Part shown: positions 18,001 to 22,454 of the stretch, piece after piece
How the letters are laid out: every line of letters begins with the position of its first letter
How positions within the stretch are numbered: position 1 is the first letter of the stretch
Virus record (IMG/VR): IMGVR_UViG_2703718769_000008
Span: 1 to 23,051 of that record
Reading direction: 5' to 3' (one strand)
DNA length: 23,051 nucleotides
Source of the DNA: a virus
Lineage: Duplodnaviria > Heunggongvirae > Uroviricota > Caudoviricetes
Position numbers: made by a program

Positions 18001-21000
18001 GTGATCCTGCTGGACTTTATGCGTCGGGAATTAAACCTGTCTAACTCATCTGTGCTTGGGGCTTGTCAGAAACTCCAGGAGGCTGTTGGCTTACCGAATC
18101 TGGCTCCGCGCTATGCAATTGATGCTCCTGCCGATGCACCCGATGGCTCAAGTCGCCCTACGCTGTCACTGAGTGCACTGCTGAAGCAGTATGGTATCCG
18201 CCTGACGGCTAATCAGGCATATCACCAGATGGTGAAGCTGGGGATCGTCGAGCAGCGCGAACGATACAGCCGTACCGCGATTAACAACATCAAAAAATTC
18301 TGGTCGCTGACAGCGAAAGGCTGCATGTTCGGCAAGAACATCACCAGTCCCGCAAATCCGCGCGAGACGCAGCCGCATTTCTTCGAATCCCGATTCCCTG
18401 AGCTGTTAAAGCTGCTCGATACCGTTCATTGAGGTGACCGTGAGAGCACTACTGACCCCTGAAATTGCCCCGCGTATGGGGATCGTATTGTTCAGGCCAG
18501 GTTCAGAGCTGATGCCCCTGTTTATGCAGGGGCGTGTCCTGCTGGAGCCTGAGCCGGAACGTTATTCATCTTTCGCCAGTGGTGCTGTTCCGGCGGCATC
18601 ACAACCGCTGGCGGATGATCCTGCCGTTCGGGCCGTGTTCCGCAATGAGGCAGTGATCCGTCGTGCTGGTGGCGTGGAATGTCTTGAAAGCTGGTTACTT
18701 CGTGAAAAAGGCTGCCAGTGGCCTCATTCCGACTGGCACAGCGAGAACATGACCACAATGCGACACGCGCCGGGCGCAATCCGTCTGTGCTGGCACTGCG
18801 ATAACCAGCTGCGCGATCAGTTCACGGAACGGCTGGAATCAATGGCAACGGATAACTGTGCCCGCTGGGTGTTGTCTGTCGTGCGTCGGGATCTCGGTTT
18901 TGATGATAGTCACGTTGTGACAATGCCGGAACTGTGCTGGTGGCTGGTTCGTAATGACCTGGCGGATGCCTTACCGGAAAGTGCAGCCCGTAAGGCACTG
19001 AGATTACCGAAGCCTGTTGTGTCGTCTGTCACCCGGGAAAGAGACCTTGTTCCTTCGGTTCCTGCCACCAGCATCATCCAGGATAAAGCGAAAAAGGTGC
19101 TGGCGCTGAAAGTGGATCCGGAGTCGCCGGAGTCTTTTATGTTACGCCCAAAACGTCACCGCTGGGTTAATGAAAAGTACACGCGCTGGGTTAAGACACA
19201 GCCGTGTGCATGTTGTGGAAAGCCTGCTGATGATCCCCACCACCTGATAGGCCACGGTCAGGGTGGAATGGGTACAAAAGCGCATGACCTTTTTGTGTTG
19301 CCTTTGTGCAGAAAGCATCACGACGAGCTGCATGCGGATACCGTGGCATTTGAAGAAAAGTATGGCTCCCAACTGGAGCTGATATTTCGTTTTATCGATC
19401 GTGCGCTGGCAATTGGCGTGCTGGCCTGATTTTGTGGAGAAAGTTGATGCGTGATATTCAGATGGTTCTCGAACACTGGGGAGCATGGGTAGCTAATAAC
19501 CATGAGGATGTAACATGGTCGTCTATTGCCAACGGATTTAAGGGGCTTATTCCAGCAAAGATAAAATCCCGCCCGCAATGTTGTGACGATGACGCGATGA
19601 TTATATGCGGGTGTATGGCGCGCCTGAACCGGAACAATAGTGAACTGCATGAATTGCTGCTTGATTACTACGTATTTGGAATGACTTTTATGAGTTTGGC
19701 AAGAAAACATGGTTGTTCGGATGGTTATATCGGTAAAAAACTTCAAAAGGCTGAGGGTATTGTTGACGGGATGTTAATGGCACTTAATGTTTCACTGGAA
19801 ATGGATGCATGCTAGATATTGCATGCAATATCTAGGAAGGATTCTGACTATTATTATATTTTTTACGAGTAGTAAGCATTGCATTGTAAATGACAGTTGT
19901 ATTATAAATGGTTATTGTTATCTTGGGATGATTTGTTTTTGACGGAGGTTTTATGTGGGGCGTTCTGGCTTTATCCTTGCTAAGTTTGAATGCATATAAA
20001 CTGTTTTCTTTGTTATTGTTAATAGCATCTGTTGTTTTGGGTGTCGCTAATGGAGTTATAGATTGGCCGGCATTTGGTCTCTTTACAATCGTTGGGCTAT
20101 TGTATTGGTTAAAAGTTAAGTGGGCACAGAAATCATGGTGTAGAATTGTTACGGAGAGTTGTTTAGTTGTATTATCTGTTGTGCTGCTATATCACTTTTG
20201 GCCTGGTTTTCATAACCCTGTGGTTTTGAATTCTGTAATAACCGGGCCGTTTAGTACGCCATACACCATGTATTTTAATTTTGATAAGGCCATGGTGCCA
20301 TTTTTATTGGTGTTATCTTTTCCCAGGTTGTTTAAGAGCGATTTCAGGTACGAAGTATCTTATGGAATGTGGGCCTTGCTCTTTTTATCTGTTCCATTTA
20401 TTTTGGTTTTAGCTGTTTTACTGGGTGGAATAAAACCAGAGGTTCATTTCCCGGAGTGGTTGCCAAAGTTTATATTGAGCAACTTGTTTTTTGTCTCTCT
20501 TGCTGAAGAAGCATTTTTCAGAGGATATCTTCAGCAGCGTCTTTCTATGATTGTACATCCATTTGTAGCATTGTTTATCGCTTCAGTTTTGTTTGGTCTT
20601 TATCATTATTCTGGTGGTTTGTTACTTGTACTGTTTGCAATGTTATCTGGAGTGATTTATGGCATGGCATGGATGTTTAGTGGACGCTTATGGGTTGCTA
20701 CATTTTTTCATTTTGGGTTGAATTTGTGCCACCTGTTATTTTTTACCTATCCATTCTTAAAAAATCATTGAACATGTTGTTGTTGACATCCTCCACGCCC
20801 TGAAGAACGGGGTTTACGGCTCACTGGATAATATTCACTCCATTAATGGTTAAAAATGAGTAGTAAAGCATTTACGTACGTAAATTATAGAATATGATGT
20901 TAAAAGTGGTTACTGTACCAAACTGCTAAATCCACCTGCGGGCGGTTTTTGTGTCTATGGATTGTCATTGCCCGGACTGTTGTTACTCTACATGGCCAGA

Positions 21001-22454
21001 CGGGCATTACTGCGTATCAGGTAAGAGTGTGAATAACTGTATTTAATAACAAAATCTTAAAAGTTTAGTGAGGTACTGTGTAGTTGTCTAAATGTTGTGT
21101 ATTTTAGGTATTGCAGGATATCCCTGTAACGAAGTTTGCGTAACAGCATTTTGCCCTACGAGTTTGCCAGCCTTCCCCTGTGGCTGGCTTTTTTTATGTC
21201 TGTAACATTCAGTAGTTCAGTAAACGCGCTGGTGGTGGTGAATACCGGTCTTTCAGCTTGTTGGCTTTTTCGACAAGAGTTATTGGTGTGTCACGTTAAC
21301 CGGAATAGGGAAAAAGACATGCTGAAACAGCCGTATATGACTGAAACCGCCAGAGTGTTATTTAATGAATTAAGTGTTAACGACCCGGCGACAGTCGGGG
21401 AGATGGCGCAGAGTACTTACCTTTCACGCGAACGCTGCCAGTTAATACTGACCCAGCTCGTTATGTCGGGTAGTTAAAGCCAGCCGGAAGTCTTTACCTG
21501 TTCTGTGGATATCGCCTGGCATCTGATATTGAAATCGTGATGCGTAAACGTTTTAATGTGCTGAACCATATCATATGGGCGAAGCCGTTCAGACGTTGGA
21601 GCGCATGCTGTTGTTGCTCACTGGTATTACGAACGGTTTGCTCACGGGGATGTACACATATTAATTGTTGATGTTAATATTTCGTCATGTTATTAATACA
21701 AAATTGTAACGCATCATTCAAAGTATTATAATTATCATTTGTTGCATTTATTATGCCAACATTCCTTGTTGGTCTTCCTTCTGTTGAATACTCTATCCAG
21801 AATGAGCCGGTGTATTTTGACATTCTATATGTTGCGAATTCTTTTGCATTAATTGGTGGTTTGGTGCCGTTGAGATCCATTATATAACCACTTTCTTGAA
21901 TTGTCTTGGAAAGGCAATTGATTATTTCATTTGTCGATATTTCACTGTCGATTTGAGGATGATCCACAATTAGCCCCATGCAGAGGATGCTTGAAATTAT
22001 TATAAAAATATTTTTTATCATGATGTCTGTTTTTGTGATCTTTTAGATAGAATGTCTGCTGTGGAGATATGTATACCTCTTGTGCTCATTTATTTCAATA
22101 GATAGTTGAGCACTCATTGTGCTAATGGAAGAAGTTTTTTAATAGGGAGTATCATCAAAATCACACAATAGTAATTAATGTTGCTATTAGATAAAGAAGT
22201 ATCGCTAACTTTGATTTTGTTGAATTTGTTTTTAATAAAAGTTAGTATGGATTATATAGCAGGCATATGCATGCTGTTTTTAAAGAAACTTATTGCCCCT
22301 TTAGCCCTAATGGTCAGAGCGAGCGGTTAATAACCGCCAGGTCGCCGGTTCAAACATGGCAGGGGCACGAAGCGCTGTTAGCTCAGTTGGACAGAGCAAT
22401 TGCCTTCTAAGCAATCGGTCACTGGTTCGAATCCAGTATGGCGCACCATGCGGT

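What the first reader, a model, noticed from the sequence alone, without database searches (positions are those of the whole stretch)
19879..21197. CPBP/Abi-family intramembrane protease moron between Q and the first strong downstream terminator
The 272-aa polytopic protein carries all three CPBP motifs (EExxxR, FxxxH, HxxxN) and lies in AT-rich DNA immediately after the Q gene, where lambdoid phages normally have only pR', the qut site and tR'. A promoter-like element (19879-19907) sits just downstream of Q, and the first strong intrinsic terminator is after the CPBP gene (21166-21197). If the promoter is pR', the gene occupies the constitutively transcribed pR'-tR' interval and would be expressed in lysogens. 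CPBP/Abi proteins are known from bacteriocin immunity and abortive-infection contexts, so this could be a prophage-borne exclusion, immunity or envelope-remodelling function.
Basis: partly seen in the sequence, partly recalled or inferred. Interest (0 to 1): 0.7.

Follow-up and report, generated by a model that had tools for sequence, protein, structure and literature searches.

The report
Prophage CPBP protease gene upstream of pR'
A real, intact membrane-protease gene of the CPBP family sits as AT-rich cargo just after the phage Q gene, but it lies before the late promoter rather than inside the always-transcribed leader as proposed, and it belongs to an already annotated, functionally unstudied gene family found in about 10% of E. 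coli genomes.

Summary
ORF 19953-20771 encodes a 272-aa CPBP/Rce1-like protein: Pfam E 2e-18, all three catalytic motifs invariant, and its only strong structural matches are SpdC and Rce1. It is AT-rich (37% GC), and the hairpin at 21166-21195 is a strong terminator.

The proposed mechanism does not hold. The late promoter pR' is at 20871-20898 (TTTACG-N16-TATGAT, start about 20905), roughly 100 bp downstream of the CPBP stop. It is homologous to the pR' of the Sakai Stx phages, which was mapped by dRNA-seq. The terminator is the tR' of a 291-nt StxS-like leader.

The order Q, CPBP, pR' was found in 47 of 47 loci examined. This includes O157:H7 Sakai prophage Sp4, where ECs_1085 is annotated as a "CAAX amino terminal protease".

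The gene therefore occupies a variable cargo slot between Q and pR'. It probably has its own sigma-70 promoter in the Q-CPBP spacer, and early transcripts reading through Q should also cover it. It is under purifying selection (dN/dS 0.1-0.3). Its relatives are stand-alone chromosomal genes in other Enterobacterales, with no bacteriocin or defence partner.

Its function is unknown. This is an ordinary, already annotated prophage accessory gene; the window carries a rare allele.

The parts
19447..19815 (+). Q antiterminator gene (122 aa from the RefSeq ATG; a TTG at 19432 would give 127 aa)
   Evidence: PF06530 E 7e-52. Annotated 'antiterminator Q family protein' in NZ_AP042495.1. 76-81% protein identity to the Q of Sakai Sp15, BP-4795 and POCJ13.
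19812..19835 (.). Perfect 24-bp palindrome CTAGATATTGCATGCAATATCTAG overlapping the Q stop codon; not a canonical terminator (no U-tract)
   Evidence: The hairpin has dG -16.6 and z -2.8. It is not conserved in the other CPBP-bearing prophages.
19890..19924 (+). Candidate own promoter of the CPBP gene: ATGACA(19890-95)-N17-TATTGT(19913-18), or the overlapping TTGTAT(19897-902)-N16-TATCTT(19919-24).
   Evidence: Consensus scan. It aligns with TTGCCA/TTGTCA-N17-GATAAT of the main clade, whose -10 is invariant in 15 unique spacers. L051 has TTGACA...TATAAT at the same place. Function is inferred, not shown.
19944..19948 (+). Shine-Dalgarno GGAGG, 4 nt before the ATG
   Evidence: AAGGAG/AAGGAA is conserved in relatives.
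19953..20771 (+). CPBP (Rce1-like) intramembrane glutamic endopeptidase gene, 272 aa; catalytic residues E185, E186, R190, H218, H253, N257
20871..20898 (+). Late promoter pR': -35 TTTACG (20871-76), 16-nt spacer, -10 TATGAT (20893-98). The -35 lies inside the 14-bp palindrome TTTACGTACGTAAA (20871-84).
   Evidence: Homologous to TTTACG-N16-TATCAT of Sakai Sp15. The dRNA-seq start site of Sp15 falls 7 nt after its -10 once coordinates are anchored on the terminator. Present 78-103 nt after the CPBP gene in 47 of 47 loci.
20905..21195 (+). Predicted pR'-tR' leader transcript (about 291 nt), the StxS-like unit. It starts AGTGGTTAC. The proximal hairpin at 20932-20950 is degenerate here. An RNase E-type GGU|AUU site lies at 21107-21112.
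   Evidence: Alignment A1 with Sakai Sp15, BP-4795, POCJ13 and the Stx1d prophage. The StxS paper maps a 258-nt leader with cleavage at +173 in GU|AUU. Folds; coordinates.
   Evidence: z -3.7. Homologous to the Term-seq-mapped StxS 3' end of Sakai.
21319..21477 (+). First ORF after tR' (52 aa, phrog_331; 'hypothetical' or 'TrmB family' in RefSeq), the start of the late region
   Evidence: A homologous ORF follows pR' directly in Sakai Sp4.

Best explanation
The ORF is a genuine, catalytically intact CPBP (Rce1-like) intramembrane glutamic endopeptidase gene. It is carried as horizontally acquired, AT-rich cargo in a variable slot between the Q antiterminator gene and the late promoter pR'.

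The real pR' is at 20871-20898 (start about 20905), roughly 100 bp after the CPBP stop. The terminator at 21166-21195 is the tR' of a roughly 291-nt StxS-like leader. The gene is therefore not inside the pR'-tR' interval. It is the last gene on the early-right side of the map.

Most likely (inferred) it is transcribed in two ways:
- from its own sigma-70-type promoter in the Q-CPBP spacer (19890-19924), independently of Q, which would allow expression in the lysogen;
- by read-through of the early transcript that makes Q after induction, because no terminator separates Q from it.

The product is an inner-membrane protease of about 8 helices. It derives from a stand-alone chromosomal gene family of other Enterobacterales. 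It most likely cleaves or processes an unidentified membrane or envelope protein or peptide of the host (or of an invader), giving the lysogen an accessory envelope function.

Shown: family, fold, motifs, position relative to pR', conservation of the layout, purifying selection. Inferred: own promoter, timing of expression, substrate and benefit.
For: Family and fold:
- Pfam PF02517, E 2e-18.
- Motifs EExxxR, FxxxH and HxxxN invariant in 21 relatives.
- AlphaFold pLDDT 95.6.

Position of pR':
- The StxS paper gives the pR' start site and the tR' 3' end 258 nt apart in Sakai.
- On the Sakai sequence, the terminator's last T and a point 7 nt after TATCAT are exactly 258 nt apart.
- That promoter, its AGTGGTTAC start, the RNase E site and the terminator all align with window 20871-21195.
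- In 47 of 47 loci, Q lies 129-165 nt upstream of the intact CPBP gene (the gap is larger only where the CPBP gene is frameshifted). The pR' signature lies 78-103 nt downstream of the gene and never between Q and CPBP.

Cargo slot:
- Empty in BP-4795 and Sakai Sp15, where pR' overlaps the end of Q.
- A DnaD_N-like ORF in POCJ13.
- A 148-aa reverse-strand ORF in the closest-backbone prophages, with pR' again after the cargo.

Own promoter:
- Positionally conserved hexamers in three diverged clades.
- The -10 GATAAT is invariant in 15 unique main-clade spacers, while only 45% of upstream spacer columns are invariant.

Other points:
- No terminator between Q and CPBP.
- Foreign composition.
- Purifying selection, dN/dS 0.11-0.29.
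- Intact in the defective Sakai prophage Sp4.
- Chromosomal stand-alone relatives at about 50% identity in Hafnia, Photorhabdus, Enterobacter and Dickeya.
Against: - No transcript data were available for this gene or for ECs_1085.
- Promoter-like matches in this AT-rich region are no more frequent than in shuffles, and the window's own hexamers are mediocre (9 of 12).
- There is no convincing terminator of its own after the gene, so it is not a textbook promoter-gene-terminator moron.
- Nothing identifies a substrate. There is no partner gene, no PADLOC hit and no literature.
- The gene is absent from all 50,697 isolated phage genomes searched. It may therefore sit mostly in poorly inducible prophages, where selection could act on the host side only.
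- pR' function in this particular prophage rests on homology, not measurement.
Confidence: 0.6

Rival explanations
1. One reading: the element at 19879-19907 is pR'. The CPBP gene then lies inside the constitutively transcribed pR'-tR' interval and is expressed in lysogens as part of the short late leader that ends at 21197.
For: The spacer after Q contains sigma-70-like hexamers. In 933W-type phages pR' does lie right at the end of Q. No strong terminator precedes 21166.
Against: The homologue of the mapped pR' (promoter, conserved start AGTGGTTAC, leader, RNase E site, tR') is a single contiguous unit at 20871-21195, after the CPBP gene. No copy of the pR' signature lies between Q and CPBP in any of 47 loci. 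The Q-CPBP spacer is not alignable with pR' and differs between CPBP clades. Other cargo in the same slot can even be on the opposite strand, with pR' after it.
Confidence: 0.03
2. Early-lytic gene only. The CPBP gene has no working promoter of its own. It is silent in the lysogen and is made only after induction, as the distal gene of the early transcript that encodes Q. It would act during lytic growth, for example remodelling the membrane before lysis or blocking superinfection of the infected cell.
For: It is on the same strand as Q. It sits 137 nt downstream with no terminator between and upstream of pR'. Linkage to Q is strict, 47 of 47. Promoter-like hits are not above chance.
Against: The -10 hexamer is conserved in the spacer of the main clade, and promoter-like elements sit at the same place in three diverged clades. 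The gene stays intact under purifying selection in defective prophages such as Sakai Sp4, where a lytic-only function would not be selected. The gene is absent from all isolated, plaque-forming phages searched.
Confidence: 0.27
3. Immunity or exclusion function. The protein protects the lysogen against a bacteriocin or against superinfecting phages, as CPBP/'Abi' proteins do for some Gram-positive bacteriocins. This concerns function and is compatible with the best explanation's account of expression.
For: Family precedent from established knowledge: the PlnI and SkkI-type immunity proteins (Kjos et al. 2010, J Bacteriol; cited from my own knowledge, not read here). It is a prophage cargo gene in the inner membrane. 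The first 80 residues are far more diverged between alleles (34% identity) than the rest (69-77%), as might be expected of a specificity-determining part.
Against: No bacteriocin or toxin gene lies next to it in the window, in 47 prophage loci or beside the chromosomal relatives. It matches none of 5,027 PADLOC defence models. No paper in the library links a Gram-negative prophage CPBP to exclusion. The N-terminal region is poorly conserved across the whole family, including chromosomal members, so its divergence is not specific to phage alleles.
Confidence: 0.15
4. Non-catalytic scaffold. Like S. aureus SpdC or streptococcal Abx1, it would act by binding and modulating another membrane protein rather than by proteolysis.
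Against: All catalytic residues (E185, E186, R190, H218, H253, N257) are invariant across prophage and chromosomal members. This argues for retained enzymatic activity.
Confidence: 0.08

Closest known systems
ECs_1085 of E. coli O157:H7 Sakai prophage Sp4 ('phage CAAX amino terminal protease family protein'), the common E. coli prophage allele (WP_000265265.1 and relatives; phrog_13291)
   Same: The length is the same (272 aa), as are the motifs and the layout: Q, a spacer of about 150 nt, CPBP, about 85-100 nt, then pR'. A homologue is present in 574 of 5,426 complete E. coli genomes, including O157:H7, O121:H19 and O111:H8.
   Different: The window allele is only 62% identical in protein and about 74% in DNA over the 3' two-thirds. 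It occurs in just 2 of 5,426 genomes. Its spacer and promoter-like hexamers differ. Its pR' leader carries the distal StxS-type tR', whereas Sp4 has only the proximal hairpin terminator.
pR'-tR' late leader / StxS small RNA of Stx phages (Sakai Sp5 and Sp15, 933W, H-19B, BP-4795)
   Same: Window 20871-21195 shares the promoter hexamers, the palindromic -35 region, the AGTGGTTAC start, the GU|AUU RNase E site and the terminator. The Q proteins are 76-81% identical.
   Different: In those phages pR' overlaps the 3' end of Q, with nothing in between. Here an 819-bp gene plus spacers separates Q from pR'. The leader is about 291 nt rather than 258 nt, its proximal hairpin is degenerate, and no stx genes follow.
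CPBP / Rce1-like family (Pfam PF02517): Rce1, S. aureus SpdC/LyrA and MroQ, bacteriocin-immunity 'Abi' proteins
   Same: It gives an HMM match, has the three catalytic motifs and has the polytopic helical fold.
   Different: Identity to the solved members is only 14-20%. It belongs to a compact enterobacterial subfamily with extra invariant N-terminal blocks (HxxPGFxN, NxDKAxxPF). It has no CAAX-protein, Agr-peptide or bacteriocin context. No member of this subfamily appears to have been characterised in the literature searched.
Classical lambdoid cargo genes near Q and the late promoter (stx downstream of pR'; the 'moron' concept of Hendrix and colleagues, from established knowledge)
   Same: It shows presence/absence polymorphism between otherwise similar phages. 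It has deviant base composition and a likely autonomous promoter.
   Different: It lies upstream of pR', so unlike stx it is not under Q control. It also lacks a clear terminator of its own.

Membership tests
CPBP / Rce1-like intramembrane glutamic endopeptidases (Pfam PF02517) | Profile match above the curated threshold | tested here: met
   66.7 bits against a cut-off of 22.4, E 2.2e-18, covering profile positions 3-92 of 93.
CPBP / Rce1-like intramembrane glutamic endopeptidases (Pfam PF02517) | Motif 1, EExxxR | tested here: met
   E185-E186-A-F-F-R190. E185, E186 and R190 are invariant in 21 relatives.
CPBP / Rce1-like intramembrane glutamic endopeptidases (Pfam PF02517) | Motif 2, FxxxH | tested here: met
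   F214-G-L-Y-H218, invariant.
CPBP / Rce1-like intramembrane glutamic endopeptidases (Pfam PF02517) | Motif 3, HxxxN/D | tested here: met
   H253-F-G-L-N257, invariant.
CPBP / Rce1-like intramembrane glutamic endopeptidases (Pfam PF02517) | Polytopic helical fold like Rce1 or SpdC | tested here: met
CPBP / Rce1-like intramembrane glutamic endopeptidases (Pfam PF02517) | Proteolytic activity on a membrane-associated substrate | not testable with these tools
   This needs biochemistry. Only the conservation of catalytic residues speaks for it.
   The pR' homologue is at 20871-20898, after the stop codon at 20771. The order is the same in 47 of 47 loci.
Moron (autonomous cargo gene in a temperate phage) | Present in some and absent from other closely related phages at the same position | tested here: met
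   The slot is empty in BP-4795 and Sp15 and holds other cargo in POCJ13 and L061/L062.
Moron (autonomous cargo gene in a temperate phage) | Base composition different from the flanking phage genes | tested here: met
   GC 37.2% (GC3 35.5%) against 43-57% for the flanking genes.
Moron (autonomous cargo gene in a temperate phage) | Own promoter | tested here: inconclusive
   Promoter-like hexamers sit at a conserved position, and the -10 is invariant in the main clade. However, such matches are not above chance in this AT-rich DNA, and no transcript data are available.
Moron (autonomous cargo gene in a temperate phage) | Own terminator | tested here: not met
   The fold of 20765-20870 is no better than shuffles (z +1.1). 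There is only a weak 6-bp hairpin with three U.
Moron (autonomous cargo gene in a temperate phage) | Expressed from the repressed prophage | not testable with these tools
   No supplement with Sakai start sites is held. There are no hits for ECs1085 in papers or in the modulon supplements.
Bacteriocin-immunity CPBP ('Abi') proteins | Encoded beside the cognate bacteriocin or its export genes | tested here: not met
   No such neighbour is present in the window, in the prophage loci or at the chromosomal relatives.
Known anti-phage defence systems (PADLOC-DB v2) | Match to a defence-protein model | tested here: not met
   0 families at E <= 0.01.
StxS-type pR'-tR' leader (for the element 20871-21195) | Promoter, start, RNase E site and terminator homologous to the mapped Sakai unit | tested here: met
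   Alignment A1 anchored on mapped ends. Rfam has no model that matched. Transcription here was not measured.

The most novel reading that the evidence does not exclude
The prophage CPBP is expressed in the lysogen and acts as an intramembrane protease. It would destroy or process an incoming envelope-targeting agent (a phage injection protein or a membrane-inserting toxin), or remodel a host receptor. That would make it the first CPBP-based exclusion or immunity function described in Gram-negative bacteria. It would be carried by about 10% of E. coli, including the major EHEC lineages, with allele-specific N-terminal helices setting the specificity.
Probability: 0.12. Interest if true: 0.65.

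Novelty: new member of a known kind. Interest (0 to 1): 0.3.

Why it matters
The practical value is a corrected map. In this group of lambdoid prophages the late promoter is not always next to Q. A variable cargo slot can separate them, so genes found "just after Q" are not automatically under pR' or Q control. This matters when predicting which prophage genes, including toxin-linked ones, are made in lysogens and which only after induction.

The CPBP gene itself is a conserved, purifying-selected accessory gene that has never been studied. It is present in roughly one in ten E. coli genomes, including O157:H7 Sakai (ECs_1085), O121 and O111. Assigning it a function would be a modest but real gain. 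Nothing found here suggests a new kind of system.

Tried and rejected
1. Rfam scan of 19400-23051 for a known late-leader or sRNA family over the finding. Nothing matched in 19816-21300, and StxS has no matching model. Hits were only further downstream.
2. tblastn of the protein, and blastn of the common allele, against 50,697 isolated phage genomes: no match. Comparison therefore had to rely on prophages.
3. Expression evidence. The StxS paper's start-site dataset is not held. 'ECs1085' appears in no paper. The EHEC modulon supplements do not list it. The Stx-phage architecture paper does not mention it.
4. Defence-system models (PADLOC): no hit.
5. Sequence search of solved structures: no hit at E <= 1. 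The fold comparison was needed instead.
6. Treating the palindrome at the Q stop codon as a terminator. Rejected because it has no U-tract and is not conserved.
7. Treating the small hairpin after the CPBP stop (about 20797-20813) as the gene's terminator. Rejected because the fold is no better than shuffles.
8. Looking for the Sakai copy at the coordinates of strain 20R2R. That was the wrong region; it was found in Sp4 instead.
9. One NCBIfam call failed on a wrong frame and was not repeated.
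Full report
**Origin of the window.** The stretch 19400-21500 is 100% identical to the chromosome of E. coli OkiPb01678 (bovine faeces, Okinawa). It lies in a lambdoid prophage integrated next to tRNA-Thr and proA. RefSeq already annotates the ORF there as WP_021499255.1, 'CPBP family intramembrane glutamic endopeptidase', preceded by an 'antiterminator Q family protein'.

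**Checking the observation.**
- ORF 19953-20771 (+) encodes 272 aa and has a GGAGG ribosome-binding site 4 nt upstream.
- It matches Pfam PF02517 (Rce1-like) at E 2.2e-18, and a full-length phage family of unknown function, phrog_13291, at E 4e-107.
- EEAFFR (185-190), FGLYH (214-218) and HFGLN (253-257) are present. Their key residues are invariant in an alignment with 20 relatives.
- An AlphaFold model built on that alignment is very confident (pLDDT 95.6, pTM 0.91).
- The upstream gene is a Q antiterminator (PF06530, E 7e-52).
- The CPBP gene has 37% GC (GC3 36%) and the Q-CPBP spacer 29%, against 43-57% for the upstream phage genes.
- The hairpin at 21166-21188 followed by T7 is a strong terminator (z -3.7). 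Nothing convincing precedes it after Q.

The exception is the promoter-like element at 19879-19907. It is one of several overlapping weak matches in AT-rich DNA, and such matches are no more frequent here than in shuffled sequence.

**Where pR' really is.**
- Phages with a similar Q but no CPBP gene (BP-4795, the Stx1a phages, POCJ13) match the window in two pieces: the Q gene, and 21043-21224.
- The StxS paper (PMC7547250) mapped the pR' start by dRNA-seq and the tR' 3' end by Term-seq in the Sakai Stx phages. The two are 258 nt apart, with an RNase E cut at +173 in GU|AUU.
- On the Sakai Sp15 sequence, I applied a constant 135-bp shift between genome versions. The mapped 3' end then falls on the last T of the terminator GCCAGCC...GGCTGGCTTTTTT. 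The mapped start falls on the A that lies 7 nt after TATCAT of a TTTACG-N16-TATCAT promoter overlapping the end of Q.
- The distance between these two sequence features is exactly 258 nt, and +173/+174 falls exactly in GU|AUU.
- This whole unit aligns with window 20871-21195: TTTACG (20871-76), N16, TATGAT (20893-98), AGTGGTTAC from 20905, GGU|AUU at 21107-21112, and the terminator at 21166-21195.

The homologue of the mapped late promoter thus lies about 100 bp downstream of the CPBP stop codon.

**How general is the layout.**
- A diverged CPBP homologue (about 62% protein identity) occurs in 574 of 5,426 complete E. coli genomes, including O157:H7, O121:H19 and O111:H8. The window allele itself occurs in only 2.
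- In Sakai it is ECs_1085 of prophage Sp4, annotated 'phage CAAX amino terminal protease family protein', next to the Q gene ECs_1084.
- I examined 47 loci: the window, six E. coli genome loci and 40 prophage-derived IMG/VR contigs. In all 47, Q is immediately upstream, with a gap of 129-165 nt where the CPBP gene is intact. The pR' signature lies 78-103 nt after the CPBP gene and never between Q and CPBP.
- One of these is an Stx1d prophage with the order Q, CPBP, pR'-tR', stx1d.
- The interval between Q and pR' is a general cargo slot. It is empty in BP-4795 and Sp15. It holds a 197-aa DnaD_N-like ORF in POCJ13. It holds a 148-aa ORF on the opposite strand in the prophages whose backbone is closest to the window's, with pR' again after the cargo.
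- The Q proteins of all these phages are 76-81% identical to the window's, consistent with a shared pR' and Q-binding site.

**How the gene is probably expressed.** This part is inference.
- No terminator separates Q from the CPBP gene. The 24-bp palindrome at the Q stop has no U-tract and is not conserved. Early transcripts that make Q should therefore continue through it.
- The spacer carries promoter-like hexamers at the same aligned position in three diverged clades. The window has ATGACA-N17-TATTGT (or TTGTAT-N16-TATCTT). The main clade has TTGCCA/TTGCCT/TTGTCA-N17-GATAAT. L051 has TTGACA...TATAAT.
- In 15 unique main-clade spacers the -10 is invariant (6 of 6) and the -35 is 4 of 6, while 45% of the upstream spacer columns are invariant.
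- The gene is intact in defective prophages and has dN/dS of 0.11-0.29. Together with the promoter evidence, this favours an autonomous promoter and a host-side benefit.
- No transcript data could be obtained.
- There is no convincing terminator between the gene and pR'.

**What the protein may do.**
- Relatives at about 50% identity and the same length are stand-alone chromosomal genes in many Enterobacterales. In Hafnia and Photorhabdus the gene lies between modF and galE or gpmA. It sits in other housekeeping neighbourhoods in Enterobacter and Dickeya. None has a bacteriocin, toxin or defence partner.
- The protein hits no PADLOC defence model.
- No paper in the library deals with it, or with any Gram-negative prophage CPBP in exclusion.
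- The catalytic residues are invariant, which argues for an active protease rather than a SpdC-like scaffold.
- The first 80 residues differ strongly between alleles: 34% identity against 69-77% for the rest. That region is also poorly conserved family-wide.

The best-supported statement is an accessory inner-membrane protease with an unknown envelope substrate. Immunity or exclusion remains an untested possibility.

**Verdict.** The family assignment and cargo status are right. The pR'-tR' placement, and hence the proposed route to constitutive expression, is wrong. The gene belongs to an already annotated but unstudied prophage gene family, and the window carries a rare allele. Interest is modest. 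It rests on the corrected promoter map, the defined cargo slot between Q and pR', and the wide distribution of an uncharacterised gene in EHEC lineages.

Noticed in passing
window 20905-21195: A complete StxS-like late leader is present in a prophage that carries no stx genes. It has the pR' start, a conserved GU|AUU RNase E site at 21107-21112 and the tR'. The processed 3' fragment would be about 86 nt (21110-21195). The regulatory sRNA described for Stx phages may therefore be made by non-Stx prophages too.
   Followed up: partly
window 20871-20884 (also L007 1355-1368 on the minus strand, and L061 about 3500): The -35 of pR' sits inside a perfect 14-bp palindrome, TTTACGTACGTAAA. In the 933W-type phages it is TTTACGATCGTAAA, which is also a perfect palindrome because both central bases are changed. 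L061 has TTTACAATCGTAAA. This is a candidate protein-binding site, possibly the Q-binding element.
   Followed up: partly
window 20932-20950 compared with L007 1313-1290 and L060 about 28198-28221: A proximal hairpin with a U-tract about 28-50 nt after the pR' start is strong in Sakai Sp15 and Sp4, and is the only terminator in Sp4. It is degenerate in the window, where the distal tR' is strong. The two terminators seem to substitute for one another.
   Followed up: partly
window 19812-19835: A perfect 24-bp palindrome, CTAGATATTGCATGCAATATCTAG, overlaps the Q stop codon. It has no U-tract and is absent from the other CPBP-bearing prophages. Its purpose is unknown; it could be an operator or a recombination scar.
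   Followed up: partly
window 19867-19880 and 20858-20872: A direct repeat, GAGTAGTAAGCATT / GAGTAGTAAAGCATT, flanks the CPBP cassette. The downstream copy abuts the pR' -35. Only 2 of 300 mononucleotide shuffles reach this score. It may mark a junction of the cargo insertion, and it is specific to the window allele.
   Followed up: partly
window 20780-20831: A 52-bp stretch just after the CPBP stop is 87-89% identical, in inverted orientation, to the sequence immediately upstream of stx1A in BP-4795 and POCJ13. It is unexplained and may be a recombination remnant.
   Followed up: no
window 22825-23024 (+) and 23025-23051 (-): There is a full-length match to the sRNA family STnc100 (RF02076, 132 bits, E 4e-30). 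At the very end of the window, on the opposite strand, lies the 3' part of an AsxR/AgvB-type prophage anti-sRNA, cut off by the window edge.
   Followed up: no
window 22295-22524: tRNA-Arg(TCT) at 22372-22448 and tRNA-Gly(TCC) at 22450-22524 are preceded by a degenerate tRNA-like sequence at 22295-22367 (28.3 bits, just under the Rfam threshold). Related prophages carry Ile-Arg-Arg or Thr-Gly sets at this position.
   Followed up: no
collection level: The CPBP gene is present in 10.6% of complete E. coli genomes. It is absent from all 50,697 isolated phage genomes, including several hundred Stx phages. The prophages that carry it may be rarely inducible or under-sampled.
   Followed up: partly
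L004, L052, L054, L055: Four of the 47 loci have a frameshifted CPBP gene, and in L004 the Q gene is frameshifted as well. Occasional decay occurs despite overall purifying selection.
   Followed up: no
L009-L011 and L014-L016: In Hafnia and Photorhabdus the chromosomal relative sits at a conserved position directly after modF, before galE or gpmA. At the DNA-search sensitivity used here, a homologue was detected in only 574 of 5,426 complete E. coli genomes, in prophage context wherever I inspected it. A more distant chromosomal copy in E. coli was not tested for.
   Followed up: partly
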